This document shows, in pieces, positions 1 to 51,448 of a DNA stretch of 52,608 nt. A model generated the notes under the pieces. The model made no database searches. It was not told the DNA's origin and saw only the letters and a program-made list of their open reading frames with translations. Both the position numbers and the translations under genes were made by a program. Source of the DNA: a virus (taxonomy: Duplodnaviria > Caudoviricetes); IMG/VR virus record IMGVR_UViG_3300027896_000058, positions 1 to 52,608 of that record; one strand, given 5' to 3'. Numbering within the stretch: the first letter of the stretch is position 1; the number at the start of each line of letters is the position of its first letter.

Positions 1-207
1 GTCGGCCGGCAGGTCAGGGAAGTCAATCGTCTGCGGAACAGGTGCAACCCTATCCGAAGGTGGCGGGGTCTCCAAGGGAACCGGCGCAGGGGCAACAGGG
101 GCCGGAGCCACTGGAGCCGCAGGAGTTACAGGAGGAGGAGTGCTGAGCGGATGGTTCATTATCTTTGCCATCACGCCCTTGTTGAGATCACTTAACTGAT
201 TTGCCAT
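1..207 (-). CDS. 5' part of putative capsid scaffolding protein (Pro/Ala-rich N-terminus; runs off window start)
   Basis: ATG at 207 opens MANQLSDLNKGVMAKIMNHPLSTPPPVTPAAPVAPAP... with no stop to base 1. It lies downstream of the portal, and a Pro-rich frame resumes at the window end upstream of the capsid gene. Confidence 0.7.
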   Translation of the reverse strand, partial: MANQLSDLNKGVMAKIMNHPLSTPPPVTPAAPVAPAPVAPAPVPLETPPPSDRVAPVPQTIDFPDLPAD

Positions 208-37291: not shown

Positions 37292-40200
37292 TTACTGAGG
37301 CCCGACGGCCCATGGTTCATACTTCACATTGTACGGGGCGCCTGGCTGCAGTATCATTCCTACAGTGAGCGACGGGGCTCCATTATCTTCATAGTTCATC
37401 TTTCCAATAAACCATGTCAGTCCACCAGCACCAACGATCATTACCGTGTCGCCTGCCTTGTACGGGGCAGTGTCAACCTTGTACGTGATTACATAAGTTA
37501 TCAACGTGCTGGTTGGGTCGTAATACGACCAACCCCACTTCGCGGTTGGAGTATCCAACATCTGAGTGAAGTATTCACCGACGATGTTTCTCCACACCTG
37601 CCATCCTCCACCGTAGTTCACCCACAAGACTCCGTTTGCTACCATCGGCCCGGGCCAATATACAGGCAGAACTTTTATGGTTATCGTTATCAACTGCTTG
37701 TCACTTGCCTTAAGACCTGGATCTACCTCTATCGTTGCCAAGTAAGTTCCATGAGTCAGACCAACTGCAGATACAGAAGTAACCACATCTGCTTGCTGTT
37801 GCATCTCAAGATCATTCGTAGGAACGTTTGTGATCGAAACCTGACTGCTTGGAACAAGAGAGTAATTAAGAGTTGAAGGTTCGGTAGAGATATTCTTCAC
37901 CGTAAAGGTCAACGCTTCAGTGTTCGTGTTGCCTTCAATGAAACTCACCTGAGCCGTTAGAGGAGTCACCTGAAGAACCGGAGTTCCTCTGATGACTTCC
38001 GTAGTCGCATTACCGTTGATCTTTGGATCAGGAGTTGTCGCATTGATCGTAAGAGTAGCGTTTAACTTTCCACCTGTGACAACACCGGTTGTGTTGGCTA
38101 TTCCATTGTGGAAGGACGTATGAGCTGCAGTGAACGAATCAGCCTTGTCTGAACATACTCCGGTAAGGATGAGATCGTTCTTGAACTCTTTGAGAGTCTG
38201 CTTCGTCTTGTTATCAAACGCACGAACGGAGATGTCAAACGTCTTGGTTCTGTATACCTGTTTCTTGACAGTAACTTCAAGACCGATGGACGGCTTGACG
38301 TATATGTTGATCGAAATAGTATCTCCAGTTATCTCTCTTCCGTTCACGATTCCTTTGATCGTGCATAGAGCAACGTACTGAGGACCAGAGTATCCGCTGA
38401 GCATGTTGGTTGACGTGAGGGTCATCGTAGCGCCATCAGCCTTTTGCATTGATACAGGACCATGCGTAGCGCCGTCGGCCTTGTCCATGAGAATAGTTGC
38501 TCCTGCCGGCCAGTCACCATACTTCTCGCAGGTCACAATGTAGTTCATATCAGCAAGAGCGGCCAGAGGTCCACCCTGAAGCTTGTGAACAGTGAGAGAC
38601 TTCGTTGAAGTAGTGTCGGGCTCGACGAACCAGTTGTATCCGTTGAGTCCTCCAGAAACATACTCAGGCCACCAAGGGTATACCATCAGAGGCTTGTCTG
38701 GATCTTTCGGTTCAATCGGAGTTTGAGGGGTTGGCTTCAAAGGATTGACGGGTGTCAATGGCTTTGGATCCAGAGGTACAGGAGGAGGTGGCTGTCTTTC
38801 AGGATTGGGCATCCCGGGATCGACAGGGAACGGAGGCCATGGCGGAGTACTGGTCCCTGGATACATTGGTCCAGCAGGAACAATCGGAACAGTAGGAGTG
38901 CATCCTCCGCCATTTGTACATACAGGAATGATCCCTCCAGTTATAGGATCGGTCAACCACCAGTCAGTAGGAAATCCAGCATCGGGAATTCCTGCATCTA
39001 TTATGTACGCAACTCCGGGATCGAACGTGCCTTCGGTAATCACAAGCCAGTTGCCGACATCGAGGCCGATGATAAGAGCGTTCTCATTCGCAGACTCAAA
39101 CCAGTTCTTGAAGTTGCAGGTTGAGGTGTAGTCAAAGTCATCACGAGGATTGTCGATCCGCATGTTTACCGGAACGAACGAATCATTGACCGGCTGGGCG
39201 ATTGTCTTGCCAAGGAAGTCCACCCGCTTGATCTCTGCATATCCATCCCACTCAAGGCAGAACTGGAACTCGAATCCTGACAGGTACGCAAGGTGAGCTG
39301 AGTTGTCAGAAATAGATTCGTCAAGTGACGGGAATGAAAGCATGGATCTTGACTGAGGCTGACCGACGATGATGTTCAGGTTAGGGGCCGGAGAGTAGAT
39401 CTGTTGGGCAAGGACTTCCATCGAGGATACTTTGCCGTAGTCAGCTCTGTTGTCGGGCTTGACATAGAGAGTGAACGCAACATCGTTTATAAACTTGTCG
39501 ATCCAGATCTTGCACTCTCTCACGCGCTTGAACACATGAGGCACATCCATCAAGGATCCGCTTGTTGAGAACGACTGGAACGGATAGGACTTGGTGTACA
39601 GGCGACAGTTGATCGGCTTGTCTTCGCAATCATACTTCCTTGTCTCGTCGATCTCGTAGAGAAGATTCCTGTTGTTCTCATCCTTCGTGAACGCAAAGCA
39701 TCTCTGCTTGTCATGGAACAATCCAACGACCAAGTGAGTTGGCTTGATTCCGGTCCATATACCATCCCAGGCGGGACCGAGTTCGTTCTTGAGATCACTC
39801 ATGCCTGACTTGGGAGCCAGATCGAGAGAAGCGATACCCTTGAACCTGTAGTCGCGTGTGTCTGAATTGTCGATTGCCTTAGCACTGCAGATCTCTCCGT
39901 TCACGGTCATCAGGATCCTGTCATTGAACAAGACCGCTGAAGCATACGGGAGAAGCCACTGCGTGTCATTGTCGTTGACGTCCTTCATCTCCTGCCATAG
40001 ACGAGCGAATCGCCGGCGCGCCTTGACCTCAGACTTCATGAGCCTGTACGAAGCAAGACCCTGCCAGCTCATGTAGAACATGTCTTCAAGCACTGTGAGA
40101 TTGAAGTAAGGTGAAGCGGATCCATATCCTTTGATCGAGATGTGGCCGATGTTCTGTTCCTGCCAGAGCAAGCGATCCACGAACACGTCATAGTTCGCTA

Positions 40201-40927
40201 TGCCATTCTCTCCGAATACAACCAACGGTCCTTGTCCTGTGCCTGTTTCAAAGTCTGCAATGAACGCCATGCCGGTGATGTTGCCCATGTCTGTCGGGAG
40301 AGCAAAGGCTCCTCCACCATTCAAGTAGGCTGTCTCAGTGAACTGGAGAACTGTCGTCGGGCTTGTCGCCTGATAGATGTCACCTGCCAGGAACTGGTTC
40401 CTTCCGTTCTTGATGAACAATCTGCCGTGTCCATAAGCCATGACCGTACCGATAGGAAGCTCGCTCTTGGATGGATCTGCACGACGAGCGTTGAGCCCGT
40501 TGATGATCATTGGCGTGTTGATTCCATCCTGCACGATCATGAACTGTTCGGCCTGACAGAAGAAGATCCTGTCAATCCACTGGCTCATTCTACCGATCTT
40601 GTCCGACACATGACCGACTCTTCCAGTCTCTCCGTCAATCACGAACACATGACCATTCACCGCGCAGGCGATGTAACAGGTCTCTGCCGTGTTGTATTCC
40701 TTCGCACCCTGGAACCGACCATAGGTGAAAAGGTTGTATGTGAAGAGATTGTCGAAGACAAGGTTGCGAGCCTTGAACCCGGGCCTTGTCTTGATGACGG
40801 CATTGCGGCAGACGACGTTGATGCCCTTGACGTACTGCTTGTCCGTGATGTCTCTCGACGACGATCCGGAGTCCATCCCCTCGACGAGAGAGGTGAATTT
40901 ATCGTTGCAGTTTGAGACATCGCCCAT
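37292..40927 (-). CDS. tail nozzle (P22 gp10/tubular B-like) with Pro-rich linker and Ig-like C-terminal extension
   Basis: GMDS...N...IKTRPG start, beta-rich AYGHGRLF segment; residues ~660-750 Pro-rich; Thr/Val-rich C-terminus. Confidence 0.65.
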   Translation of the reverse strand: MGDVSNCNDKFTSLVEGMDSGSSSRDITDKQYVKGINVVCRNAVIKTRPGFKARNLVFDNLFTYNLFTYGRFQGAKEYNTAETCYIACAVNGHVFVIDGETGRVGHVSDKIGRMSQWIDRIFFCQAEQFMIVQDGINTPMIINGLNARRADPSKSELPIGTVMAYGHGRLFIKNGRNQFLAGDIYQATSPTTVLQFTETAYLNGGGAFALPTDMGNITGMAFIADFETGTGQGPLVVFGENGIANYDVFVDRLLWQEQNIGHISIKGYGSASPYFNLTVLEDMFYMSWQGLASYRLMKSEVKARRRFARLWQEMKDVNDNDTQWLLPYASAVLFNDRILMTVNGEICSAKAIDNSDTRDYRFKGIASLDLAPKSGMSDLKNELGPAWDGIWTGIKPTHLVVGLFHDKQRCFAFTKDENNRNLLYEIDETRKYDCEDKPINCRLYTKSYPFQSFSTSGSLMDVPHVFKRVRECKIWIDKFINDVAFTLYVKPDNRADYGKVSSMEVLAQQIYSPAPNLNIIVGQPQSRSMLSFPSLDESISDNSAHLAYLSGFEFQFCLEWDGYAEIKRVDFLGKTIAQPVNDSFVPVNMRIDNPRDDFDYTSTCNFKNWFESANENALIIGLDVGNWLVITEGTFDPGVAYIIDAGIPDAGFPTDWWLTDPITGGIIPVCTNGGGCTPTVPIVPAGPMYPGTSTPPWPPFPVDPGMPNPERQPPPPVPLDPKPLTPVNPLKPTPQTPIEPKDPDKPLMVYPWWPEYVSGGLNGYNWFVEPDTTSTKSLTVHKLQGGPLAALADMNYIVTCEKYGDWPAGATILMDKADGATHGPVSMQKADGATMTLTSTNMLSGYSGPQYVALCTIKGIVNGREITGDTISINIYVKPSIGLEVTVKKQVYRTKTFDISVRAFDNKTKQTLKEFKNDLILTGVCSDKADSFTAAHTSFHNGIANTTGVVTGGKLNATLTINATTPDPKINGNATTEVIRGTPVLQVTPLTAQVSFIEGNTNTEALTFTVKNISTEPSTLNYSLVPSSQVSITNVPTNDLEMQQQADVVTSVSAVGLTHGTYLATIEVDPGLKASDKQLITITIKVLPVYWPGPMVANGVLWVNYGGGWQVWRNIVGEYFTQMLDTPTAKWGWSYYDPTSTLITYVITYKVDTAPYKAGDTVMIVGAGGLTWFIGKMNYEDNGAPSLTVGMILQPGAPYNVKYEPWAVGPQ

Positions 40928-40929
40928 GA

Positions 40930-41805
40930 TTACAGATTCCCGTTATTTGAAGCTATCCACTGAACATTAATGTTCACATCGTTGATAGCGCCGCATGACT
41001 GCTTGATCGTGAACCCATTCACCGTTATCGCGGTAGGATACACGACAAGGATCGCGCCAAGCGCAGACACAGGATTGTACGACAAGACCACGTTAGGGAC
41101 CGTTGTAAAGGCCTTGGTGAAGGTTACAGTGCCTATCGTTTCATCGGCAGTACTAAGCGTAGGGTTACATCCTGCGACGATCCCAGAGGCAACCAGGTGG
41201 CTTGGTTGGACTGCTGGCCATACCTTGGCGCCGGCTGTCAGGCTCAATCCCGCGGCCATGTTGTTTGAGTCCACGTTCATCACGGTAATGCTGAGAGCGA
41301 TTGTGTCCACTGCCAGAACCTTGTAGAACCCTGCACCCTCTACGAAGATCGTCATGCCAGTCTCGCACCACATGTCAGCGCGCTGGAGGTAGAAGACGGA
41401 CGAAGATGTTCCGGCCGGAGCAACGAAGATCTCGGTTGTCAGGTCGTACAGGGCAAACGGAGAGACTGTCGCGCTATACGACAGATCCGGCTGAGCACAA
41501 GGCATCATGACTGTCCCGATAGGGATAGCAGATCCGGCTGCACCATTGGCGGATACCCCGTCATTGATGACGTAGATGTGAGTTGCGTCAGGTGTTCCTG
41601 TCACTCGGAAGAAGCCTGCGCCGGAGATCCAGATCCACATGCTGATCCGGTACTGACTTGACTGAAGGACTTCAACCGTAGTCTGTGATCCGATGTTTGG
41701 AATCACGAAGGTTTCAAGAAGCTGTTCAGTGAACGGATGAACGTGGTTAACCTGGACTGCAGACTGTTCGATGTTGAATACTGTAAGTGTCGGCGGCTGA
41801 ATCAT
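40930..41805 (-). CDS. putative tail/fibre protein without signal peptide
   Basis: Two GAGF-containing repeats; C-terminal VTFTKAFTTVPNVV...NGFTI...VQWIA (H-type lectin/gp53-like). Confidence 0.65.
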   Translation of the reverse strand: MIQPPTLTVFNIEQSAVQVNHVHPFTEQLLETFVIPNIGSQTTVEVLQSSQYRISMWIWISGAGFFRVTGTPDATHIYVINDGVSANGAAGSAIPIGTVMMPCAQPDLSYSATVSPFALYDLTTEIFVAPAGTSSSVFYLQRADMWCETGMTIFVEGAGFYKVLAVDTIALSITVMNVDSNNMAAGLSLTAGAKVWPAVQPSHLVASGIVAGCNPTLSTADETIGTVTFTKAFTTVPNVVLSYNPVSALGAILVVYPTAITVNGFTIKQSCGAINDVNINVQWIASNNGNL

Positions 41806-41823: not shown

Positions 41824-42300
41824 TTAAACAATTCTCGTTGCAATATACTTCAATTCCTCGCTTGTGGCAAGTTCGGCTGGTTCGACCATGAACGAAGGCT
41901 TATTGATTACCGGCCTTCCAGCAACATTACAAGTCTCAGAACAAAGCTCGGAACAGAACCATTTGTCAGAGTTATCGTTTGAGTCTACGAACCATCTGAC
42001 AATAGGAAGGAACCTGAACAAGCCGATGTAATCATACTTCTTGCCAACCTGAGCGAGAAGGAAAGCTTCTGCTTTCATGTTCTCTTCCCGAGTCAAGACT
42101 GTCTTGAAATCAAACAGATCTACCTTTGTACCCTGAGCATGAAAGCATCCGAAGATCTTGTTATGGCAGATCCCGTGACTTCCCCAGGCTTCGATCTCTG
42201 TTCCATCGCTAAGGATCCATGACGCATGTGAATACTTCGACCATGTTCTCGTCTTGATCCACCAACTCAGAAGACCAGTACCTTGATACAGTGCAATCAT
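41824..42300 (-). CDS. permuted papain-like NlpC/P60 (YiiX/YaeF) enzyme
   Basis: YSHA...IEA...GKKYDY...KWFCSEL, with His before Cys. Confidence 0.85.
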   Translation of the reverse strand: MIALYQGTGLLSWWIKTRTWSKYSHASWILSDGTEIEAWGSHGICHNKIFGCFHAQGTKVDLFDFKTVLTREENMKAEAFLLAQVGKKYDYIGLFRFLPIVRWFVDSNDNSDKWFCSELCSETCNVAGRPVINKPSFMVEPAELATSEELKYIATRIV

Positions 42301-42563
42301 TTGCTTCCTCCCATGTAATACTTCAGAACTTCTATCACGGATACTACAAGAGATGCTCCGAGACTTCCGTGAAGGATGGACTGTCCCTTACTCGATGTGC
42401 AGACCTCTCTTCCTGATACGCATCCATTCTTCTGAAGGTCTTCAACCTTCGTGTTCAATGCGTCAATCTTCTTGAACAGAACATCATTCTGTTTTTCGAG
42501 ATTACCTATATTGGCCTCGATTCTCCCCAGCGCCTCAGATGTCGGGTCAATAGATCCAGTCAT
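42297..42563 (-). CDS. coiled-coil protein with C-terminal TM (holin-like)
   Basis: MTGSIDPTSEALGRIEANIGNLE... then a hydrophobic tail. Confidence 0.5.
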   Translation of the reverse strand: MTGSIDPTSEALGRIEANIGNLEKQNDVLFKKIDALNTKVEDLQKNGCVSGREVCTSSKGQSILHGSLGASLVVSVIEVLKYYMGGSK

Positions 42564-42576
42564 TGCTAGATACCTT

Positions 42577-43341
42577 TCAGGATTCGATAAGTGTAATTTT
42601 CCACATGTCCGAGGCAAGACTTGGATTCGAGATGAACGAGTAAGGGAGATAGAAGAATCCCTTATCGCCCCATCCGGATCCCCATGAGTTTTGAACCTTG
42701 AACATCTTTCTCTGGTCGTTGTATCCGACTGCGAGAACCGCGTGTCCGCCCAGAAGCGACTCGTTCCTGGCAGGCATTGGCACGATCCCGGTACGGGCAA
42801 CGATGTCGGATTCAAAACTGTCATAGACAGAGAATCCAAAGACAAAGGGAAATCCAGAAGCAAGGCATGATCTCATGTCGTCAAGACTCTGGATCACTGA
42901 AGCGTATAGCATGACCTGATGTTTGGCCGCATGCGTGTAGCAAGACTTGAGCGGCTTCTTCGTGAACTTGGTCACGTCGTACTTCCACTCAGTTTCCGGA
43001 CAGACTCCAAGAGTTGCGACAGACTTCATCCCGTCACGGATCTGGGCGCCTGAGTCCTGCTTGACAGTGCCTTCCATTTCACGCTCGTTGTAATAGATGA
43101 ACAGGCGGGAAGGCGTAAACTTCTCTTTCGCGTCTTGCTTGATCTGTTCAAAGTAATGGCAGGAAGCAATGGCATTTGCCGTACAGGATCCGAGCTGACC
43201 TTGATTCAAGATCGGGACGATTGGGTTCGCCAGGTCGATCATCGAAGGAAGGTTCTCAGGTATGTGAACCGGCAGGAACTTGAAGTCACGGAAGTCGATG
43301 TGATCCTTATGCCAGCCGTATGATCGTTTGATCTTTTTCAT
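42577..43341 (-). CDS. papain-family (C1) cysteine peptidase
   Basis: NQGQLGSCTANA, SRLFIYYNER, GGHAVLAVGY, QNSWG..WGDKG. Confidence 0.92.
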   Translation of the reverse strand: MKKIKRSYGWHKDHIDFRDFKFLPVHIPENLPSMIDLANPIVPILNQGQLGSCTANAIASCHYFEQIKQDAKEKFTPSRLFIYYNEREMEGTVKQDSGAQIRDGMKSVATLGVCPETEWKYDVTKFTKKPLKSCYTHAAKHQVMLYASVIQSLDDMRSCLASGFPFVFGFSVYDSFESDIVARTGIVPMPARNESLLGGHAVLAVGYNDQRKMFKVQNSWGSGWGDKGFFYLPYSFISNPSLASDMWKITLIES

Positions 43342-43835
43342 CCTTTCACCTTTTGGCTCGGCTTCACTACGATTGTGATCTGACTGCCATAATTACCATT
43401 CGCGTTTACCACGATCCCGTTGTTGACTGTCGGGGAAGCCGTAGCAGTAGAAGCACTGGCCGAAGACTCGTCCTTATCGCTCAGGCCAAGAAGCTTCGGA
43501 TTGTTGGCAATGATCGGCGTCACAACGACAAGGATCGCGGCTGCGGTAACAGTCTTCGGGAACTGTACGGGAACCTGAGCCATTGTCTTGAAGAACCCTA
43601 CCTTTGCCACGCTATCCTTGAATGTCCAGACATCTGCCGTAACTACCCCGCCAGACAGCGATGGAGCCACCTGGATGCCCGTAGGATCGACGATCTTTGC
43701 AGGTACGGGTGTTTGTATGGCTCCGACTGCTTTGTCGGCTCTGAGAGCCATCTGTGTAGGATCTCGAAACGACATATCTTCCCCTGCTACCACACTGGTT
43801 GCCGCCAATACGATCACTGCCATTATCTTGTTCAT
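43338..43835 (-). CDS. signal-peptide protein with internal TM segment
   Basis: MNKIMAVIVLAATSVVA-GED; later VTAAAILVVVTPII. Confidence 0.65.
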   Translation of the reverse strand: MNKIMAVIVLAATSVVAGEDMSFRDPTQMALRADKAVGAIQTPVPAKIVDPTGIQVAPSLSGGVVTADVWTFKDSVAKVGFFKTMAQVPVQFPKTVTAAAILVVVTPIIANNPKLLGLSDKDESSASASTATASPTVNNGIVVNANGNYGSQITIVVKPSQKVKG

Positions 43836-43857
43836 ATCACATACCTTTCTTGTTTTA

Positions 43858-44193
43858 CTATTCATGCCAGTTCCCTCCAAGTTCCGAAAGATGCCACACC
43901 TCATGTCCCAATGTGTATAGGTCAGGGTGTCGCGGCCCGTCAGGTTGCACCCAAATTGTTCTCGTCATCTCATCGTAAAAGCCACGCACCTGTTCGCGTT
44001 TGTGAGCCTCGTGCTTATCCCATTCCTTTTGAATCGTGCCACGATCTGCAACCTTAATCGTGAATGTATCCACCCCATACTCAGCCACGCCCTTATGCAT
44101 CACGCACCCGCAGCCTAGCTGTACGGCTACAACGACACAGAGGATTGCAACCCAGATTAGGCCAAATGCGCGGTAGGTGAGGAGGTGGTTCAT
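43858..44193 (-). CDS. putative lipoprotein mini-zincin
   Basis: Hydrophobic N-terminus ending LGCGC; VRGFY...IWV...TLGHEVWH (HExxH). Confidence 0.6.
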   Translation of the reverse strand: MNHLLTYRAFGLIWVAILCVVVAVQLGCGCVMHKGVAEYGVDTFTIKVADRGTIQKEWDKHEAHKREQVRGFYDEMTRTIWVQPDGPRHPDLYTLGHEVWHLSELGGNWHE

Positions 44194-46046
44194 CTCCCCT
44201 CCAACTTGAGCAATCGCGCTTTCAGTGCCTTACGCGCAATAATCTCATCACGCAATGCCGCTTGCAGGTAGCCGCACCAGCCGACGAGGTCAATGCCAGC
44301 GTTAGGGTCGCCATTGGCGCAAATCTCACGGGGTATCTGCGGGTCATCCAGCATGATGCCAACATGAGTCGCTTGGAACTTAGGCAATGCCGCTTTAGCC
44401 GTTGAGAGTTCATCGCGTTTGGCTTCGACCATCGCAGGTTCAAAACTATCAACGATCAACGCCTTTTCTGCCACGGGTTCCGATACACCCTTTTCATCCA
44501 TTGTTGCGAGTTCCATTAAGGCTTCATCGGTCGTGATGATAGCATCGGCCTTATCCATTCTCTGCAACACTTCCTCGTCACGCACAATCGGTTTACGTTT
44601 CCAGCGGTACACGGGAATCAGTGACAATTCGTCGGCGTAGTTCTTGACCACATCGACTTCAACAATATCCTTCGCGTCACGGTTGCAGGTGTAGGTTGTC
44701 CATGAGTCGGCAATGGGATCGGTCGCGGATGTTTGGACGATGGAGAGGATGTTTGTGCCGGTGGTGGTCCCGATTCCCACGTTGCGCCCAGAAGATATAC
44801 GCATTGCCTCTGCATTGTCGTTATTGTTTGTACCAGCAAAAAATGCCATGTACATAGGAACACTATTGCTGGCAACAGTGCCCTCTGAATACACTTTAAT
44901 TGATGCACTATTAATATACGAATAGCCATCATATCCATGAAATTCTACATTTCCTGCACGATCACCGGAGCTAACAGATACAGGAGCATCGGGATTTCCT
45001 CTAGCTTTTTTCAGGGTAATCACCGGAGGAGATGCGTCCGCAGAGAACTGACTGAATATCGCTGTTCTATCTGCAATGCCAGCAGTAGATATTACTCTTA
45101 ATGGTGTGTTTGTTCCTCCATAAATAACCATCACTGCGTTGGTCACATTGTTCGTTCCTATCCCAACTCGTCCAAGAAACGTATTCACAGCCCCCGCCAC
45201 CGTCTGCGTGATGGACGCGCACGAGATGTTAGTGGCCAAAATGTCACCGGCAACGTGGAGCTTGGCGGCGGGAGAGGTTGTGCCGATGCCGACCAATCCC
45301 CCGAAGTAACTCTTCGTCGTCCCGTCAATATACACCCCGTAATTATTTGACGCGCCAATAAGATTCGCCACGCGCAGGCCGTATTGATTTAGGCATGTTC
45401 CACCTCCCATATAGATATCTCTTGCGGCAAAATGCTCCACGTCTGTTATGGCTATCTTGGACCCTGCAACAGTTTCGGCTCCACTATCGAATCCCCTAAT
45501 ATGGGCCACTGTGCCCGAAGATGATGATCCGAACAAGGGATATGCAAATGCGCCCCGTATATACGGAGTACCTGTAAACTGACTGCGTATATCCATGGCT
45601 GTCGTAAAACCTTGAAAAGCGAATCCCCCGGTGCAATCAAAAGCCATACTACTTAAAATCGGTTGTATCTGAAAATTATTATATACACCCGCTCCGGTAG
45701 GCGCGGCAGGAGACACCGTTGTCCCTAATTGCATATCGTAACTGGCATTTACTACCGCTGTTTTGGTGCTAGCAATGTTCACAATATTACTGAACACGGA
45801 CACGCCCTTGAATACATTAGTCGAGGCGGCAGAGCTATTCGTAATCCCGCCGCTGACTTGGAGGGTTGTTGCGGTAATGTTGGATGCAATCACTTGGGCA
45901 ACAACACCAGATACGGAATTGATACTAGACCACTTCAGAGATGACGTACCTAAATTACCTTCGTTACTTGCTCTTGGGACAACATCTCTCGTTGCACCTG
46001 AACACAGCGAAACCAACAACATAAAATACACGATTAGCTTTTTCAT
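44190..46046 (-). CDS. tail fibre/spike with C-terminal S74-type intramolecular chaperone and N-terminal signal peptide
   Basis: MKKLIVYFMLLVSLCSG-ATR; VGIGTT repeats; WTTY..NR.AK...HVG...C-terminal coiled coil. Confidence 0.8.
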   Translation of the reverse strand: MKKLIVYFMLLVSLCSGATRDVVPRASNEGNLGTSSLKWSSINSVSGVVAQVIASNITATTLQVSGGITNSSAASTNVFKGVSVFSNIVNIASTKTAVVNASYDMQLGTTVSPAAPTGAGVYNNFQIQPILSSMAFDCTGGFAFQGFTTAMDIRSQFTGTPYIRGAFAYPLFGSSSSGTVAHIRGFDSGAETVAGSKIAITDVEHFAARDIYMGGGTCLNQYGLRVANLIGASNNYGVYIDGTTKSYFGGLVGIGTTSPAAKLHVAGDILATNISCASITQTVAGAVNTFLGRVGIGTNNVTNAVMVIYGGTNTPLRVISTAGIADRTAIFSQFSADASPPVITLKKARGNPDAPVSVSSGDRAGNVEFHGYDGYSYINSASIKVYSEGTVASNSVPMYMAFFAGTNNNDNAEAMRISSGRNVGIGTTTGTNILSIVQTSATDPIADSWTTYTCNRDAKDIVEVDVVKNYADELSLIPVYRWKRKPIVRDEEVLQRMDKADAIITTDEALMELATMDEKGVSEPVAEKALIVDSFEPAMVEAKRDELSTAKAALPKFQATHVGIMLDDPQIPREICANGDPNAGIDLVGWCGYLQAALRDEIIARKALKARLLKLEGR

Positions 46047-48013
46047 AACGGTTGCAATCCTCCAGTTGTGTTTGTCTCCCATAAAGCATCAGACTGAAAA
46101 ACACTTACAGGTTCCAGTCCTCCAGTTAAGTTAATATCCCAAGCTCCATTGGTCGTAACTTGAATGCTGATATAGCCGACAGCATTGGTTCTGGTGAATG
46201 CAGAAGTTCCCCCAGATACAACAAGATTGGTAATAATATTGTTCGTGCTCACTGGCTGAAGCGCGGTTGCAACCCCACCACTCACGCTGACCATCCAGTT
46301 TGAAATATTATTTATTGAGCTGGCAAACAATGCCTGAGTTGATGCAGACATCGTAAGTCCATTAGACCAAATAAGAGAGGACACATTTGTAACACTGAAT
46401 CCTCCAAGGCTCAAATCAGACAGCATTGGCAACGTGCCATCAACACGTAAATATCCAAGGTCAGCGGTGGACAACGTAATGTCCATCTGCGAGGGATAGT
46501 TTGTACCCACTCCTACAATGATATTGGTTGTAGCTCCACCGCCGGAAGATGATGCAAGTTTTGACCGTACCGCAAAATACCAAGGTACATTGGTGGAAAT
46601 ATTAGGCAATGGAATTACCCAAGATGAGATGACAGGAACCGCGCCTTTATCCACAAGATTGCTTGCCGCCGCATCGCCCCACTCAATGAATAAATGTGTG
46701 GAAGGCTCGTACCTGTAAACTTCTATCTTTGCGTACTTGGTGTTGTTTCCGCCCGTATTGTCGCAGACATAGTAATTAACTTTAGCACTGCCGCCACCAT
46801 ACACGGTAAACAACTGATTCGTCCAAATTGAACAAGCAAAGTAGCCGCCTATGGGTGCGCCATTTGTTCTAATAGCCTGCACTGGAGGGATGCCGTCACT
46901 GATCACATACGTTGCGTTGGTGGGCGTAATATCATTAGTGTACGAAAGAGTTTTATTGGAGGTAAAATACAGAGTCTTATTCGCGTTGATTACGGAGCGC
47001 AACTGAGCCAGTGTCACGGGCTGGTTGCTGATTGTGGCATCCGGAATGGTCATGGTGTAGAGACCGCCGTTGTTGGTGAAATAAGATGATGGAGCAAGTC
47101 CGCCAAGTTTTCCGGAATCTTTCACTGTTCCATTCGTTGCGTTGTCTACATAGGTAACTGATGCAAGTCCATTCGTGACTGTCTGATTTGTGAATGAGTT
47201 TGGATTGTTGGTTGGATAGAAATAGGTAAGTGTCCAACCCTTCAAAGTGTTCGTTGCTGAGTCCACGTACCCGATGGAAGCAAGACCGTTCGTGATCGCG
47301 GCTGTCACATAGTTCTTGAGAGTTACCCAATTCGTAACAGAAGACCAGAGTGTGTTCGTGGATGAATCAACATATGCCAGGGAAGCGAGTCCATTCGTTA
47401 TCGCAGACGTGACATAGTTCTTTCCGAGGATCCAGTTCGTTACCGTAGACCAGAGAGTATTCGTTGCGCCATCGACGTATAGGAGGCTTGCAAGGCCATT
47501 GGTGACGCTTGAATTAACCAACCCTTGTGTTGATATGGGGTAAAGGAGATTGTTCGTTATACCGTATCCTAAGAGGCTTGTAGGTGTGTTGGTGATGTTG
47601 TTCCAGTTGCGGAAGAAGTTCGTATCCACAACGAAAGCAGGAAAGCCTGTGTTCACGCTCATCACGAATGCGCCGTTGCTGTAGACAAAGCCCCAGAAGT
47701 TCGTGAGCTTGAGAACCGTGTTCGTGGATCCGATCTTGTTCGTGTTCGCTACAAGCCAAGCCCAGGCATTCGATCCAGAGTAATCATTCGTGGGAATCGA
47801 GATCCCCCAATTGTGCGGAGTAATCTTCTGAACGTATCCAGTAGACGAAGGAGCCAAGAGCGTGAGCTGGTAGATCGAGCCGGTAGACGAGGAACTATTC
47901 GAAGAGATGTTGCTGAGAACGTAGGGCTTGTAGTACGGCCAATCATTTCCCTGTGCTTTCGTTTCAGAAAACAATGCCAAGAAAATGATGAGCCGTACCA
48001 TCCATCGGAACAT
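46043..48013 (-). CDS. TN-rich fibre-like protein with signal peptide
   Basis: MFRWMVRLIIFLALFSETKA-QG; ~35-aa internal repeats; YLRVDGT..M and QPVTLAQL fibre-like motifs. Confidence 0.75.
   Translation of the reverse strand: MFRWMVRLIIFLALFSETKAQGNDWPYYKPYVLSNISSNSSSSTGSIYQLTLLAPSSTGYVQKITPHNWGISIPTNDYSGSNAWAWLVANTNKIGSTNTVLKLTNFWGFVYSNGAFVMSVNTGFPAFVVDTNFFRNWNNITNTPTSLLGYGITNNLLYPISTQGLVNSSVTNGLASLLYVDGATNTLWSTVTNWILGKNYVTSAITNGLASLAYVDSSTNTLWSSVTNWVTLKNYVTAAITNGLASIGYVDSATNTLKGWTLTYFYPTNNPNSFTNQTVTNGLASVTYVDNATNGTVKDSGKLGGLAPSSYFTNNGGLYTMTIPDATISNQPVTLAQLRSVINANKTLYFTSNKTLSYTNDITPTNATYVISDGIPPVQAIRTNGAPIGGYFACSIWTNQLFTVYGGGSAKVNYYVCDNTGGNNTKYAKIEVYRYEPSTHLFIEWGDAAASNLVDKGAVPVISSWVIPLPNISTNVPWYFAVRSKLASSSGGGATTNIIVGVGTNYPSQMDITLSTADLGYLRVDGTLPMLSDLSLGGFSVTNVSSLIWSNGLTMSASTQALFASSINNISNWMVSVSGGVATALQPVSTNNIITNLVVSGGTSAFTRTNAVGYISIQVTTNGAWDINLTGGLEPVSVFQSDALWETNTTGGLQPL
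47130..47520 (-). repeat. ~35-aa (105-bp) tandem coding repeat, about 3.5 copies
   Basis: (V/I)TNGLAS..YVD.(A/S)TNTLWS.VTNW...KNYVT repeated. Confidence 0.85.
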
Positions 48014-48507
48014 TACAACTCCTGTATTGCCACCACGTTTGTCTTCGTCGGGTTGGAGACAGCGTTGATCGGCTGCTGGAGCAGGAACGCAGGAACATCA
48101 ATCTCAGTTGCGGCCGCAAGATGAACTCCATTCGAGTACACCGCAATGTCATCACCGAAGGAAAGCCAGATCTCTGCCGCGCCGCCGTTGTAGATCCGGC
48201 ACATCCCGCGTGACGCATGAGGAACGAACAGATATGACAACCCGTTCGTGGAGTAAGTGCCGTTCAAGTGAGTCGGCATATTGGTTGATGTCCCGCCGGC
48301 CACTGTCACCATGTAGATCTTGTTGCTGGCATTCACCATTGCGCCCTGAGCGTATGCAACGTTCGTGGTCCACAACGGAGCAGACTGAAGATAGTTGAAC
48401 CTCGGGGACACGATCTTCTGGCTCGTAGGAGTCACGGAGAACTGTCTTGGTGCATCTGCGAAAGCCGATACTGCGATCATCATTACTGCAAGAAACATTT
48501 TCTTCAT
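48013..48507 (-). CDS. signal-peptide protein with CBM5/12-like motif
   Basis: MKKMFLAVMMIAVSAFA-DAP; WTTNVAYAQGAMV....IY.V..GG.S...P. Confidence 0.7.
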   Translation of the reverse strand: MKKMFLAVMMIAVSAFADAPRQFSVTPTSQKIVSPRFNYLQSAPLWTTNVAYAQGAMVNASNKIYMVTVAGGTSTNMPTHLNGTYSTNGLSYLFVPHASRGMCRIYNGGAAEIWLSFGDDIAVYSNGVHLAAATEIDVPAFLLQQPINAVSNPTKTNVVAIQEL

Positions 48508-48516
48508 TTGATCTCC

Positions 48517-48930
48517 TTACGGTGCGCGATAGATAATAACCCACGTTGATGTTGACGTTCCCATTGAACTGTAAATCATGTTCGTCGTTACCGAATTAGG
48601 AGCCGGTGAAGACAGAACATAAGAATCTCCGATGAACCTGGGCGTCTGATTCGTGGGAACTCCGGTAGAGTTCGTTGTGAAGTACGGAGCAAACATGTTC
48701 GTGATCGCATACGCAACATAGTTCGTGCTGGCCCTTGATGCAAGGTTCGTGGCAAGGACGATGTTGTTATCCATCCAAGTCACCAGATCCGACAGCCGGT
48801 TCGATGTTGAGAGCGTGATGTTGTAGAGCCCGTTTGTCGTGATTGAGATCTGATAATCAGGAACCTTCTGTTCCGCGTGCAGGTTCATTGCAAGGATTAT
48901 CGAGGCAAGGATCAGCGCAAGTTTCTTCAT
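48517..48930 (-). CDS. signal-peptide, TN-rich virion-region protein
   Basis: MKKLALILASIILAMNLHA-EQ; TPRFIGDSYV...W. Confidence 0.7.
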   Translation of the reverse strand: MKKLALILASIILAMNLHAEQKVPDYQISITTNGLYNITLSTSNRLSDLVTWMDNNIVLATNLASRASTNYVAYAITNMFAPYFTTNSTGVPTNQTPRFIGDSYVLSSPAPNSVTTNMIYSSMGTSTSTWVIIYRAP

Positions 48931-48938
48931 GGTTCCCC

Positions 48939-49217
48939 CTATACTGCCTTGACGTAGAACGCGCAGATCTGGGCCTGTGCATTCGGAGCCGAAGTAAAAG
49001 TGATTGTCTGGTTGAGGATCGTGTAATCAATCCCCTGTCTCTGCATGACTCCATTGATGAAGATCACTACAGTTGCGACTGCAATCGGAAGACTGCTTAA
49101 GGTGCAGACGTTTCCCCCTACGAGCAGGAGAGATTCCTGAACATACTGAGTGGAGGGGATGGAGTAGTTGTTGACCGTCGTCGTGGTTGTCGGTGGCTCG
49201 CAGCAGTTCTGACTCAT
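48939..49217 (-). CDS. small beta-rich virion protein, no signal peptide
   Basis: VIFINGVMQRQGIDYTI...TITFTSAP, a common phage structural repeat. Confidence 0.75.
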   Translation of the reverse strand: MSQNCCEPPTTTTTVNNYSIPSTQYVQESLLLVGGNVCTLSSLPIAVATVVIFINGVMQRQGIDYTILNQTITFTSAPNAQAQICAFYVKAV

Positions 49218-49297
49218 GTGTTCTCCCCCTCTTCCTTCCCCTTCGGGCCGGCAGTGCCAAGAATAACACCACCGGCCCAGGGTCAGGGAACGGCAAT

Positions 49298-49801
49298 TTA
49301 CCAGATCGCGATGTAGGACAGATTCGTCTGGACCGCTGCCCAGATGATATTGTTCGAGCTGATCGTCGGAAGTATCAGCGCAACAGTGGTGGCAACATTC
49401 GTTGCTGTGCCTGTGTAGCGCCAGCTTACCGAGATCGGGGAGCTTGTATGAACGCGGGCAAACGTGCCAGTGACAGTCGCGCCGGCAATGGCCGCAACAG
49501 TACCACGTTCAATCGCATAGACCGGATCACTGTTGAACTGAACAGTGTTAGCGACTCCATTGGAGCCCGGACCGATCTGGATCGCGCCGTTCGCAGTTGC
49601 CTGCGAGAGACCGTTGCTCAGACCGTTACCGATTACGATTGCACCAGTAGTCCCATTGGCGATGAACCCATCACCAACAAGCGTACCTTTCCACGTCGGC
49701 GCTGACGGCATCGAGGGATTCGTGCCGAGAGTACCTTCACCTGCGAGCGCGTAGCTTACTGCGAGAACAACCGCGAGAAGACCAACCATGATTTTTTTCA
49801 T
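49298..49801 (-). CDS. signal-peptide protein directly after the MCP (decoration/fibre-like)
   Basis: MKKIMVGLLAVVLAVSYALA-GE; GAIVIG and GAIQIG repeats. Confidence 0.7.
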   Translation of the reverse strand: MKKIMVGLLAVVLAVSYALAGEGTLGTNPSMPSAPTWKGTLVGDGFIANGTTGAIVIGNGLSNGLSQATANGAIQIGPGSNGVANTVQFNSDPVYAIERGTVAAIAGATVTGTFARVHTSSPISVSWRYTGTATNVATTVALILPTISSNNIIWAAVQTNLSYIAIW

Positions 49802-49852: not shown

Positions 49853-49886
49853 GGTTCCCTGCCAGGGATCACCCAGCAGGGAACTG
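49853..49886 (-). terminator. hairpin after the capsid gene
   Basis: GTTCCCTGCTGGG-tgat-CCCTGGCAGGGAAC on the minus strand; weak U-tract. Confidence 0.55.
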
Positions 49887-49891
49887 TTTGT

Positions 49892-51448
49892 TCAGACTCT
49901 TGTACCACCGCAAGTTACTGTGGCAGGGCCACCGTATGCAGCGCAACGACCAGTTGCCACTCCGACAGGGAACACGATCTTGTAGATCGGTGCTGCGAAG
50001 TCCTCAGCGATCACGCCCACAACTGCCGTGGACGGGCTCGTTCCGGTCACTGTGACCATCTGGCCCACGTCACAAGGCAAGCAACTTGCCAGTGTGAGAT
50101 AGTACTCTGTCGCGTCTGCCGCAACGTCCGAGGCATTAACCTGGGCGCATGCGCTGACTGCTATCGGGCTGGATCCAGCTGTCCAACAGGTCGGGCATTC
50201 CGTGATCTCAAGCTCGTTGCACCGGCGATGCAGGATGCAGATTGCGTCGTTGGAATGGATCCAAGGTTCAGGCGCGATCCTGAAGCGACTGAAGAAGAAG
50301 CCTTTCTCCCTCAACAGATTGTCGCAACGCTCCTGTATGTTCAGCCAGTGGAATTCACCGAAGTTGTCCGCAGGGTCGAACTTGTAACCGGACGCCAGCG
50401 AGCTGGGGTTCGGGGTGGGTGTCAACGCCTTGTACACATCCTTCAGGAATACCGCGCTGATTTCGAAGGGAGCCGCGATGTAAGCCGGATTGATGTCGAT
50501 CGCATTGCCGATAGTCGTCGGGCTTTCCAGGAACGGCCACACGCGGGTAAGTGCTGTGCCGAGCGCATTCACGACAAGGCGGGGAGCCGCAGGGTCATGG
50601 ATGTGCGAGAAGCCACGGTACGTCAGCGCTGATCCGTATCCCTGAATGAGATACTCTTCCTGCAGGTATCGGTAGTCCTTGCGGATTTCCGTGTCCTTGG
50701 TGATGACTTCATTCGACGTTTCCATCGAGGTGATCAGACCGAAGATAGGTGAACCGGACTTCATCCCGAGGGCAGCGTCAGCGGCCTGACGGGAGAGATA
50801 CGAGTACACGCGGTCAAGGACGCTCTGGGTCAGGCGACCGATGTCACCAATGCCCGCGGCCGGGATCGCCACGGTGGACGAGAACATGCCCATCGTGAAG
50901 GTCTTGAGTCCGAGGTTCGTGGTGTTGCTGGGATCTGCCTGTGCATAGAACTTCTTGCAGAAGTTGAGATACAGTTCGCGCGTGATCTGTTCCCACTCAC
51001 CCAAGGTCACATTGGCAAGAGCCTGATAGATCAGGGCCAACTGCTTTTCGTACTGCCAGTCGAACATGATGTCGGTCAGGCAGATGTCGTTGGTACGACG
51101 GGTTGCCTGATAGATCGTGTAGGACTTCTGCTCGAAACCGTAGTTGATGACTTCGCTCTGATAAGCGCAAGCATCATAACCGGCATCGTCAGATCCGTTG
51201 GTCTTGGGCGCGCGGCTCTGCTGCATCTGCGACCATGAGGCGCCTGCGTCCTGGACGGCGATACCACCGTAGAAGGTTTCATTGTACTTGGTGTAGCCTT
51301 TGCCGTACTCGAAATTGCCACGCTCAATCAGGTCGCGATATACGGCTTTGTACATCTTGGACTTGTTGGCGATGATCGGGTTGATGTCAGGGACTGCGGC
51401 GATAAATGCGTTGTTGATTTGTTCGACATTACAAGGTGTGGATTCCAT
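49892..51448 (-). CDS. major capsid protein with Cys-rich C-terminal extension
   Basis: 518 aa after the scaffold; GGAGG RBS, own promoter and downstream hairpin; strongly biased codon usage. Confidence 0.8.
   Translation of the reverse strand: MESTPCNVEQINNAFIAAVPDINPIIANKSKMYKAVYRDLIERGNFEYGKGYTKYNETFYGGIAVQDAGASWSQMQQSRAPKTNGSDDAGYDACAYQSEVINYGFEQKSYTIYQATRRTNDICLTDIMFDWQYEKQLALIYQALANVTLGEWEQITRELYLNFCKKFYAQADPSNTTNLGLKTFTMGMFSSTVAIPAAGIGDIGRLTQSVLDRVYSYLSRQAADAALGMKSGSPIFGLITSMETSNEVITKDTEIRKDYRYLQEEYLIQGYGSALTYRGFSHIHDPAAPRLVVNALGTALTRVWPFLESPTTIGNAIDINPAYIAAPFEISAVFLKDVYKALTPTPNPSSLASGYKFDPADNFGEFHWLNIQERCDNLLREKGFFFSRFRIAPEPWIHSNDAICILHRRCNELEITECPTCWTAGSSPIAVSACAQVNASDVAADATEYYLTLASCLPCDVGQMVTVTGTSPSTAVVGVIAEDFAAPIYKIVFPVGVATGRCAAYGGPATVTCGGTRV

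What the first reader, a model, noticed from the sequence alone, without database searches (positions are those of the whole stretch)
43338..49801. Cluster of virion/fibre genes carrying Sec-type signal peptides
Seen: five of the six genes after the capsid gene begin with basic-hydrophobic-small-residue leaders: 49801 MKKIMVGLLAVVLAVSYALA, 48930 MKKLALILASIILAMNLHA, 48507 MKKMFLAVMMIAVSAFA, 48013 MFRWMVRLIIFLALFSETKA and 46046 MKKLIVYFMLLVSLCSGA. The next two genes also have export-type leaders (44193 lipobox-like; 43835). One of the five is a clear tail fibre/spike with an S74 chaperone. Established: tailed-phage structural proteins normally fold and assemble in the cytoplasm without signal peptides. 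Inference: this phage exports fibre/decoration subunits to the periplasm for folding or modification and adds them to particles at lysis. Alternatively they are displayed or secreted as receptor-blocking or decoy proteins. Either would be an unusual morphogenesis pathway.
Basis: partly seen in the sequence, partly recalled or inferred. Interest (0 to 1): 0.9.

Follow-up and report, generated by a model that had tools for sequence, protein, structure and literature searches.

The report
Phage fibre proteins carrying export signals
In this uncultured short-tailed freshwater phage, seven of the eight genes after the capsid gene encode proteins, five of them fibre- or lectin-like, that begin with ordinary bacterial secretion signals, so they should mature outside the cytoplasm where tailed-phage particles are built.

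Summary
Seven of the eight genes between the capsid gene (HK97 fold) and the C1 peptidase gene start with basic-hydrophobic-small leaders. None of the next six late genes does.

The leaders are conserved features. The gene directly after the capsid gene carries one in 7 of 7 close-relative loci. Its protein family has 86 clusters, and 30 of the 32 best members pass my leader rule. The leader sequence drifts (18% identity against 47% in the core) but stays uncharged.

The 618-aa fibre resembles a Bdellovibrio MAT surface fibre, and 9 of 32 homologues carry leaders. Its S74-type chaperone is divergent: Pfam misses it and Cys replaces the catalytic Ser.

Export is very likely. Where the proteins end up is open: added to particles at lysis, or acting on the envelope. 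I found no sign that disulfides or N-glycosylation drive export.

In two cultured Cellulophaga phages, leader-bearing proteins are annotated as MS/MS-detected structural proteins.

This scan has reported the same phenomenon many times on other DNA. No trained predictor was run and no experiment exists.

The parts
49892..51448 (-). Major capsid protein gene (518 aa), no leader. It is the anchor point of the block.
   Evidence: AF2 model on 24-sequence alignment A1, pLDDT 70.6. Foldseek PDB best hits are HK97-fold capsid proteins, N4 9e99 at E 2.8e-7. 0 of 43 family members pass the leader rule.
49854..49884 (-). 13-bp RNA hairpin between the capsid stop and the first leader gene, with no U tract after it.
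   Evidence: strand folding gives -23.2 kcal/mol, z -3.7. Sequence seen.
49298..49801 (-). g167: leader (49742-49801), then a conserved beta-rich core (GxIAIG...QIGxGSN...) and a variable C-terminus. It founds a family that sits right after the capsid gene.
   Evidence: AF2 model has helix 2-24 and strands 38-94 at pLDDT 92-95. No significant fold match.
48939..49217 (-). g92: the one gene in the block without a leader. Weak tail-fibre / virion-protein domain hits.
   Evidence: PHROG phrog_2710 at 2.5e-6; Pfam DUF4183 at 0.007, below its cut-off.
48517..48930 (-). g137: leader (48874-48930) plus an N/T/S-rich body. No relatives found in the fetched loci.
48013..48507 (-). g164: leader (48457-48507) plus a CBM5/12-like motif. 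Conserved family in four phages of the clade, with the leader aligned from residue 1.
   Evidence: Pfam CBM_5_12 E 0.014, below its cut-off. PHROG virion/tail-fibre domain hits at residues 45-93.
46043..48013 (-). g656: leader (47954-48013) plus a repeat-rich fibre-like body. Contains a 105-base tandem repeat and a strong Thr-Asn excess.
   Evidence: (TN z 9.8). No family or PDB hit. The Atlas search gave only weak leads.
44190..46046 (-). g618: leader (45993-46046), a GIGT-repeat trimeric-fibre body, and a divergent S74-type C-terminal chaperone region (44193-44696) with Cys454 in TYTCNRDAK (44670-44696).
   Evidence: PDB 8ol4 (Bdellovibrio MAT fibre) E 2.6e-10. PHROG tail-fibre hits. Homologues. 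S74 junction. Start codon.
43858..44193 (-). g111: long N-terminal hydrophobic segment ending QLGC (a poor lipobox) and an HEVWH zincin-like motif. Probably an envelope or lysis-associated protein, not a fibre.
   Evidence: Only weak Pfam metallopeptidase-like hits, below cut-off.
43338..43835 (-). g165: leader (43782-43835), a roughly 85-aa exported part, a second hydrophobic stretch and a Ser/Ala-rich tail. Probably a membrane protein of the lysis/envelope group.
40930..41805 (-). Leaderless fibre candidate with a C-terminal H-type lectin domain. Its N-terminal 107 aa are shared with a leaderless 210-aa protein of relative L001.
   Evidence: Pfam PF09458 at 7.4e-7. blastp 1e-10.
37292..40927 (-). 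Leaderless 1211-aa protein. Its first ~600 aa are conserved in near and distant relatives (a tail-hub-like core). Its C-terminal half lies behind a Pro-rich linker and gave no hits in the relatives.
   Evidence: tblastn to 16 loci. No PDB or family hit.

Best explanation
The leaders are real Sec signal peptides.

Proposed sequence of events:
1. Late in infection the phage makes these fibre- and lectin-like proteins from the same transcript as the capsid protein.
2. It sends them through the host inner membrane, where signal peptidase I removes the leader.
3. They fold, and the fibres trimerise, outside the cytoplasm. The 618-aa fibre does so with its own C-terminal S74-type chaperone.
4. They meet the DNA-filled particles only when the lysis system opens the inner membrane.
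5. They then bind the particles as head or tail appendages through conserved N-terminal parts, with their variable C-terminal parts facing the host surface.

Shown: leader architecture, its conservation in families and in gene position, the fibre-like nature of the proteins, and late-operon placement.
Inferred: export itself (about 0.85), cleavage, and above all the final step of joining the particle. The confidence given below is for the whole chain including that last step.
For: - Leader architecture is present in 7 of 8 consecutive genes and 0 of the next 6.
- The gene right after the capsid gene has a leader in 7 of 7 close-relative loci that have at least 400 nt of downstream sequence. 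L002 and L026 are the same sequence. L024 (384 nt downstream) and L028 (0 nt) could not be judged.
- The g167 family has 86 clusters at E<=1e-3. 30 of the 32 with E<=1e-10 pass the rule, counting the query and L001's copy. The two misses still look leader-like.
- Leader columns have 17.9% pairwise identity against 46.9% in the core, and only 5 of 633 leader residues are charged.
- The family has a conserved post-leader core and a variable C-terminus of 134-349 aa, as in fibres that dock by one end.
- No promoter-like site lies on the coding strand inside the block. Genes overlap by ATGA.
- There are fibre-type hits.
- Precedent: in cultured Cellulophaga phages phi18:3 (gp085-087) and phi10:1 (gp091-094), seven proteins annotated 'structural protein, experimental MS/MS proteomics' all start with such leaders. 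0 of 14 other virion-type proteins I checked there do.
Against: - No trained predictor and no experiment supports export or cleavage here.
- Nothing shows that any of these proteins is in a particle.
- The phage has leaderless fibre candidates with a conserved docking end, so the particle may be complete without the exported proteins.
- The nearest characterised relative of the 618-aa fibre is a cell-surface fibre of a bacterium, not a virion part. Three leader-bearing homologues lie on contigs of 0.37-1.9 Mb (P0059 and P0061 pass the rule; P0049 is leader-like by eye only).
- The window's proteins share no sequence similarity with the Cellulophaga proteins.
- MS/MS of purified phage can pick up co-purifying proteins.
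- No disulfide or N-glycosylation rationale for export was found.
- In a diderm host no route across the outer membrane is evident.
- Earlier checks of the same bold reading on other DNA priced it at 9-30 in 100.
Confidence: 0.38

Rival explanations
1. The proteins are exported but never join the particle. They act on the infected cell's envelope or on debris after lysis, as receptor-masking or decoy binders, superinfection or re-adsorption blockers, or adhesins. In this they would work like a phage-encoded version of bacterial surface fibres.
For: - Same export evidence as above.
- The 618-aa fibre matches a Bdellovibrio MAT fibre, a family described as signal peptide plus trimeric fibre plus S74 or other tip, displayed on the cell surface.
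- 9 of 32 homologues pass the leader rule, and four more look leader-like by eye. Of the three on Mb-scale contigs, two pass the rule and one is leader-like by eye.
- Leaderless fibre candidates exist for the particle itself.
- g164 has a sugar-binding-type motif.
- P. gingivalis phage signal-peptide genes were read as envelope modifiers (PMC10367356, passages read).
Against: - The position is fixed directly after the capsid gene across capsid divergence down to 32% identity.
- There is no own promoter.
- Expression is late and coupled to the virion genes, unlike the exclusion genes I recall (T5 llp, T4 imm), which are early.
- A conserved docking-type core with a variable tip fits attachment to a conserved phage part better than to varying host surfaces.
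- Free binders released at lysis would compete with progeny for receptors.
Confidence: 0.35
2. They are host-benefit cargo (moron-type adhesins) picked up from bacterial MAT-like fibre genes. They would be expressed for the cell's sake, for example from a prophage, and be unrelated to virion or lysis function.
For: The bacterial homologues of the 618-aa fibre and their leaders. Fibre bodies differ strongly between related phages.
Against: - No integrase or lysogeny gene was noticed in the ORF lists and family scans I ran. I did not scan every ORF.
- No own promoter or terminator flanks the genes.
- Two of the families (g167, g164) are conserved core genes of the clade.
- The capsid family and the g167 family were not found in one-genome-per-species bacterial contigs. 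That search is pattern-based, so its sensitivity is limited.
Confidence: 0.1
3. The N-termini are not export signals. They are hydrophobic helices that tether the proteins to the cytoplasmic face of the membrane, serve in membrane penetration at infection, or are removed like a capsid-type propeptide. The proteins would then assemble in the cytoplasm as usual.
For: - In relative L001 the hydrophobic runs are longer (about 19-22 residues) and look more like signal anchors.
- Capsid-protein 'signal peptides' in P. gingivalis phages were ascribed to prohead protease cleavage (PMC10367356).
- My rule is crude.
Against: - Five proteins have the full n/h/c architecture with A-x-A-type sites.
- In the g167 family the site sits immediately before a conserved mature N-terminus (for example A|DWTGT) in many members.
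- A bacterial cell would route such sequences to Sec.
- 0 of 43 capsid homologues carry anything similar.
Confidence: 0.08

Closest known systems
Leader-bearing 'structural proteins' of cultured Cellulophaga baltica phages: phi18:3 gp085-087 (KC821620) and phi10:1 gp091-094 (KC821618)
   Same: Runs of consecutive genes in the fibre region of tailed phages whose products start with Sec-type leaders. They are annotated as virion proteins from MS/MS (record notes). Capsid, portal and other virion-type proteins there have no leader.
   Different: No sequence similarity to the window's proteins. The host is Bacteroidota and Gln follows the cleavage site, whereas here the +1 residues are G, E, D, Q, T. 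Different phage families; one is a siphovirus. The source paper (Holmfeldt et al. 2013, title recalled) is not held, so I saw only the record notes.
Bdellovibrio bacteriovorus MAT (mosaic adhesive trimer) fibres, Caulton et al. 2024, PMC10769870
   Same: Signal peptide plus a long trimeric phage-tail-fibre-like body plus a C-terminal S74 chaperone/protease or other tip. Residues 339-438 of g618 match chain 8ol4_A at E 2.6e-10. Passages and the Discussion were read.
   Different: MATs are chromosomal genes of a predator and are displayed on its surface. They share a ~130-aa N-terminal domain after the leader, which I could not compare. g618 is phage-encoded, shorter, and has Cys in place of the S74 Ser.
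Signal-peptide genes of Porphyromonas gingivalis phages, Matrishin et al. 2023, PMC10367356
   Same: Phage genes with SignalP-predicted Sec leaders, interpreted as using the host's secretion system (passages read).
   Different: Those are temperate phages. The genes are of unknown function and are read as outer-membrane modifiers. No fibre or virion appendage is named.
Exported phage proteins of lysis and exclusion systems (T4 antiholin RI, spanins; T5 Llp and lambda Lom/Bor recalled)
   Same: Tailed-phage proteins that use Sec or lipoprotein signals. g111 and g165 may belong to this kind.
   Different: Those are one or two small regulatory or membrane proteins per genome, not a run of fibre-like proteins. 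For RI I saw only the search listing (PMC8385771). The rest is recalled.
Head fibre or decoration genes next to the capsid gene (phi29 gp8.5, recalled)
   Same: A small fibre-like gene directly downstream of the capsid gene. phi29 capsid is among the fold matches.
   Different: Known head fibres have no signal peptide. No fold or complex evidence links g167 to the capsid.

Membership tests
Sec / signal peptidase I signal peptide | Positively charged n-region, uncharged hydrophobic h-region, small residues at -3 and -1 | tested here: met
   Crude rule: g167, g137, g164, g656 and g618 pass. g111 and g165 pass but are atypical.
Sec / signal peptidase I signal peptide | Leader kept in homologues while its sequence drifts | tested here: met
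   30 of 32 best g167 relatives pass. 17.9% against 46.9% identity. 5 of 633 charged residues. g164 family 4 of 4.
Sec / signal peptidase I signal peptide | Score from a trained predictor (SignalP 6) and experimental cleavage | not testable with these tools
   No predictor on hand and no cultured phage.
Peptidase_S74 intramolecular chaperone (PF13884) | Match to the Pfam model | tested here: not met
   No PF13884 hit in g618 at E<=10. Homologues P0052 (5.6e-15) and P0059 (9.7e-5) do hit.
Peptidase_S74 intramolecular chaperone (PF13884) | S-D-x-x-x-K catalytic motif at the fibre/chaperone junction | tested here: not met
   The junction aligns to the start of P0052's S74 domain, but the motif reads C-N-R-D-A-K (Cys454, Lys459). 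The same is true in closest relative P0047. Whether Cys can serve is untested.
Bdellovibrio MAT fibre family | Signal peptide followed by a conserved ~130-aa beta-rich N-terminal domain | not tested
   The leader is present. No MAT N-terminal sequence was on hand for comparison (feature taken from PMC10769870).
Bdellovibrio MAT fibre family | Sequence similarity of the fibre body | tested here: met
   8ol4_A E 2.6e-10 over g618 residues 339-438.
Bdellovibrio MAT fibre family | Display on the producing cell's surface | not testable with these tools
   Needs microscopy or fractionation.
HK97-fold major capsid protein | Fold match to solved capsid proteins | tested here: met
   Foldseek gave 104 matches at E<=0.001. 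The top 10 listed are all phage capsid or prohead entries. No sequence-level hit.
Bacterial lipoprotein (signal peptidase II) for g111 | Lipobox [LVI][ASTVI][GAS]C (consensus recalled) | tested here: not met
   The sequence reads V-Q-L-G-C at Cys28, with Gln at -3. This is lipobox-like only.
Virion component | Physical presence in purified particles or a predicted contact with a virion protein | not testable with these tools
   No cultured member. Analogy only, to the Cellulophaga phage records.

The most novel reading that the evidence does not exclude
A tailed phage finishes its particle outside the cytoplasm. A conserved, capsid-gene-adjacent family of Sec-exported fibre proteins, together with larger exported fibres, waits in the periplasm and is added to DNA-filled particles only after the lysis system breaches the inner membrane. 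On this reading, extracytoplasmic appendage assembly would be a widespread, undescribed step of tailed-phage morphogenesis.
Probability: 0.33. Interest if true: 0.9.

Novelty: new variant of a known kind. Interest (0 to 1): 0.6.

Why it matters
Textbook tailed-phage assembly is wholly cytoplasmic. A block of fibre-type late genes with conserved secretion signals means one of two things. Either particles receive parts that matured outside the cytoplasm, or lytic phages routinely secrete receptor-binding-type proteins of their own. Both would change how tail-fibre genes in metagenomic phages are annotated, how host range is predicted, and how such fibres should be expressed for study.

What this window adds:
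- A large (86 clusters), leader-bearing small-protein family fixed next to the capsid gene.
- A sequence link between a phage fibre and the surface fibres of predatory bacteria.
- A negative result for disulfides and N-glycosylation as the reason for export.

The question is testable now in the cultured Cellulophaga phages.

Tried and rejected
Sequence-level identification of the proteins:
- Pfam, PHROGs and PADLOC gave nothing or only weak domain hits.
- The INPHARED phage collection gave no relative of the capsid or the 1211-aa protein, and one 22%-identical unannotated hit for the 570-aa protein at 4495-6207, which I took for the large terminase.
- PDB sequence searches were blank for capsid, portal, that 570-aa protein, g656, g291 and g1211.

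Fold searches of the g167 model found nothing significant in PDB or BFVD. The best matches were E 0.96 and 0.13, with YadA-like head and left-handed beta-helix only as weak leads. The Atlas gave leads under 0.9 only.

Complex prediction of capsid protein plus mature g167 returned 'no answer' (score 0.00). I count this neither for nor against binding.

Host search:
- No tRNA.
- The capsid family (A1) and the g167 subfamily (A5) were not found in genome contigs.
- The host stays unknown.

The look-up of sequencing runs listed one DNA run, labelled freshwater metagenome, which may be the source of this DNA. No RNA holder is listed.

Further viral-contig scans with the g164 and g167 families returned only loci already known, plus one unrelated contig, L037.

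N-glycosylation idea: N-x-S/T sequons are at composition expectation, so I rejected it for this phage. The Thr-Asn excess noted by another first-stage note is real (z up to 9.8) but is repeat sequence, not a sequon.

Literature searches for the phenomenon found no paper describing signal peptides on tailed-phage fibres as such. Supplements were closed and may hold signal-peptide or proteomics tables that bear on this. The Cellulophaga source paper is not held.
Full report
WHAT THE WINDOW IS

The window is the entire 52,608-base record. It is a phage genome cut inside the scaffold-like gene that runs off both ends, with no tRNA. The late genes run on the minus strand:
- a 774-aa portal-position gene, a small gene and the scaffold-like gene;
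- a 518-aa protein (49892-51448);
- the block in question;
- a C1 papain-like peptidase (Pfam 9.9e-13) and a small protein that hits phrog_1128;
- an H-type-lectin protein;
- proteins of 1211 aa and 2621 aa.

None of the head genes is recognisable by sequence. I therefore folded the 518-aa protein on a 24-sequence alignment (pLDDT 70.6). Foldseek placed it among HK97-fold capsid proteins, with phage N4 best at E 2.8e-7. 'After the capsid gene' is therefore correct, and the phage is a tailed phage. The gene content suggests a short-tailed one (inference). No cultured relative exists in the phage collection searched.

THE OBSERVATION

The six genes after the capsid gene encode proteins of 167, 92, 137, 164, 656 and 618 aa. 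All but the 92-aa protein begin with Lys/Arg, a hydrophobic run, and small residues at -3/-1. The predicted cuts are ALA|GEG, LHA|EQK, AFA|DAP, TKA|QGN and SGA|TRD. The start of the 618-aa gene at 46046 is backed by an ATGA overlap and a GGAGG box.

The next two genes also have hydrophobic N-termini:
- The 111-aa protein ends its leader QLGC, a poor lipobox, and has an HEVWH motif.
- The 165-aa protein has a leader plus a second membrane-type stretch.

I had no SignalP. A crude rule passes 14 of 253 six-frame ORFs of 60 aa or more. Five of these lie in the block, and the other nine are ORFs of 60-105 aa. With start choice allowed, 7 of the 8 block genes pass and 0 of the next 6 late genes pass. 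My first greedy gene caller lost three of the seven to longer opposite-strand ORFs. A published table gives 0-2 signal peptides per genome for five rumen phages (PMC5723332, passages read). Seven in a row is far from ordinary.

ARE THE LEADERS CONSERVED?

This gave 23 viral and 10 metagenome loci.

Among loci with the same long (about 518-aa) capsid type:
- 7 of 7 with at least 400 nt of downstream sequence (L001, L002, L003, L025, L026, L027, L029) have a leader-bearing gene directly after the capsid gene. L002 and L026 are the same sequence.
- L024 (384 nt downstream) and L028 (0 nt) could not be judged.

In the distant group with a shorter capsid protein, 0 of 22 loci do. Their only leader-type genes are a lipoprotein/membrane pair in a lysis-like position.

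The capsid-adjacent proteins are one family, here called g167. A second family, g164, is shared by four phages. In both, alignments start at residue 1, leader included.

A profile of the g167 family against 1.84 billion representatives found 86 proteins at E<=1e-3 and 32 at E<=1e-10.
- 30 of the 32 pass the rule, counting the query and L001's copy.
- Of the two misses, one has an Asp in the hydrophobic run and the other has an upstream annotated start.
- Among the weaker 54, 27 pass. Many of the others are long leaderless fibre-type proteins with the domain inside.
- As a control, 0 of 43 capsid relatives pass.

In a 38-sequence alignment the leader columns show 17.9% pairwise identity against 46.9% in the core. 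Only 5 of 633 leader residues are charged. This is the signature of a working signal peptide. In many members the predicted cut sits directly before a conserved mature N-terminus such as DWTGT.

WHAT THE PROTEINS ARE

They are poor in charged residues (5-17%) and rich in Asn/Thr/Ser (23-38%).

- g618 has PHROG tail-fibre hits. It matches PDB 8ol4 at E 2.6e-10, a fibre of the Bdellovibrio MAT family. That paper describes MATs as signal peptide, conserved N-domain, trimeric fibre and S74 or other tip, displayed on the predator's surface (PMC10769870, passages and Discussion read).
- Of 32 homologues of g618, 9 pass the leader rule and four more look leader-like by eye. Three of these 13 (P0059 and P0061, which pass, and P0049, leader-like by eye only) lie on contigs of 0.37-1.9 Mb. 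The rest are leaderless, partly typical phage fibres.
- The S74 chaperone is divergent. Pfam does not see it. The fibre/chaperone junction aligns to the start of a Pfam-positive homologue's S74 domain. The motif reads CNRDAK, with Cys454 in place of the catalytic Ser.
- g164 has a CBM5/12-like motif below the Pfam cut-off and virion-protein domain hits.
- g167 models as a leader helix plus a confident small beta domain, with no significant fold match.
- g656 is repeat-rich and matches nothing.

The block has no promoter-like site on its coding strand. A 13-bp hairpin sits between the capsid gene and g167.

WHERE DO THE PROTEINS GO?

Export is the straightforward reading (my estimate 0.85). A bacterial cell would route such N-termini to Sec, and selection has kept them.

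The destination is open. For particle attachment:
- the fixed place beside the capsid gene;
- co-expression with virion genes;
- the conserved-core / variable-tip design of the g167 family;
- a precedent that earlier notes of this scan pointed to and that I checked. In Cellulophaga phage phi18:3 (KC821620) gp085-087, and in phi10:1 (KC821618) gp091-094, the products are annotated 'structural protein, annotation based on experimental MS/MS proteomics analysis'. All seven start with leaders. The 14 other virion-type proteins I translated there, most of them MS-annotated, do not.

Against particle attachment:
- Leaderless fibre candidates exist here, and their docking end is conserved in a relative.
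- The best-characterised relative of g618 is a cell-surface fibre.
- There is no similarity to the Cellulophaga proteins.
- Co-purification in MS is possible.
- I found no disulfide or N-glycan rationale for export: 0-6 Cys, and sequon z between -0.4 and 0.1.

My estimates are 0.38 for particle attachment after the membrane is breached, 0.35 for an envelope, decoy or masking role, 0.10 for host-benefit cargo and 0.08 for non-export. The two small proteins at 43338-44193 probably belong with the neighbouring peptidases as envelope or lysis proteins.

NOVELTY

Five literature searches found no paper that describes secretion signals on tailed-phage fibre modules. The nearest items are:
- signal-peptide genes of P. 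gingivalis phages, read as envelope modifiers (PMC10367356);
- the MAT fibres;
- the unremarked Cellulophaga record annotations.

This scan, however, has reported the same phenomenon on many other phage genomes. Later checks priced the bold reading at 9-30 in 100. This window is therefore a further, independent lineage. Its own additions are the capsid-adjacent family, the MAT link, the Cys variant of the S74 junction, and the negative result on disulfides and glycosylation.

LIMITS

- No trained predictor was run.
- The host is unknown.
- Only one possible-source run holds the DNA.
- Paper supplements were closed.
- The complex prediction gave no answer.

Noticed in passing
window 44670-44696 (g618 residues 451-459): The S74-type fibre/chaperone junction has Cys where the catalytic Ser normally sits (TYTCNRDAK). 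The closest relative P0047 has the same. The chaperone region also looks longer than in homologue P0052, read by eye rather than measured on an alignment. This may be a Cys-Lys variant of the self-cleaving domain, or an inactive one.
   Followed up: partly
window 49854-49884, minus strand: A 13-bp hairpin (-23.2 kcal/mol, z -3.7) lies between the capsid stop codon and the first leader gene, without a U tract. It may be an attenuator or stabiliser that sets the capsid-to-appendage expression ratio.
   Followed up: partly
window 41824-43341: The lysis-position genes are a C1 papain-like peptidase and a small protein that hits phrog_1128. None of the late-strand proteins of 90 aa or more that I scanned matched an amidase or muramidase family.
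   Followed up: partly
window 46043-48013: There is a strong Thr-Asn dipeptide excess in g656 (33 observed against 8.7 expected, z 9.8), and a lesser one in g137, g164 and g618. It comes from repeat motifs (a 105-base tandem repeat at 47276-47464). N-x-S/T sequons are not enriched.
   Followed up: yes
window 1-207 and 51653-52606: The scaffold-position gene runs off both ends of the record. The contig is therefore probably a complete, circularly permuted genome cut inside this gene.
   Followed up: no
L004-L023 (for example L012 13340-14672): The distant sister group, with a shorter capsid protein, has no leader gene after the capsid gene. It has a conserved trio of lipoprotein-like, membrane and 185-aa proteins just before the homologue of the 1211-aa protein, which looks like a lysis/spanin cassette.
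   Followed up: partly
L037 6482-8500: An unrelated high-GC viral contig encodes a 672-aa leader-bearing fibre-like protein that contains the g167 core domain internally. A second leader protein and a lipoprotein lie nearby.
   Followed up: partly
L047 22389-23879 (Cellulophaga phage phi10:1 gp095): The annotated pectate lyase that follows the four leader-bearing structural proteins also starts with a leader.
   Followed up: no
window 37292-40927: The first ~600 aa of the 1211-aa protein are conserved in near and distant relatives (tblastn hits in 16 loci). A Pro-rich linker and a C-terminal half that gave no hits in the relatives follow. It is probably a tail hub fused to a receptor-binding part.
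   Followed up: partly
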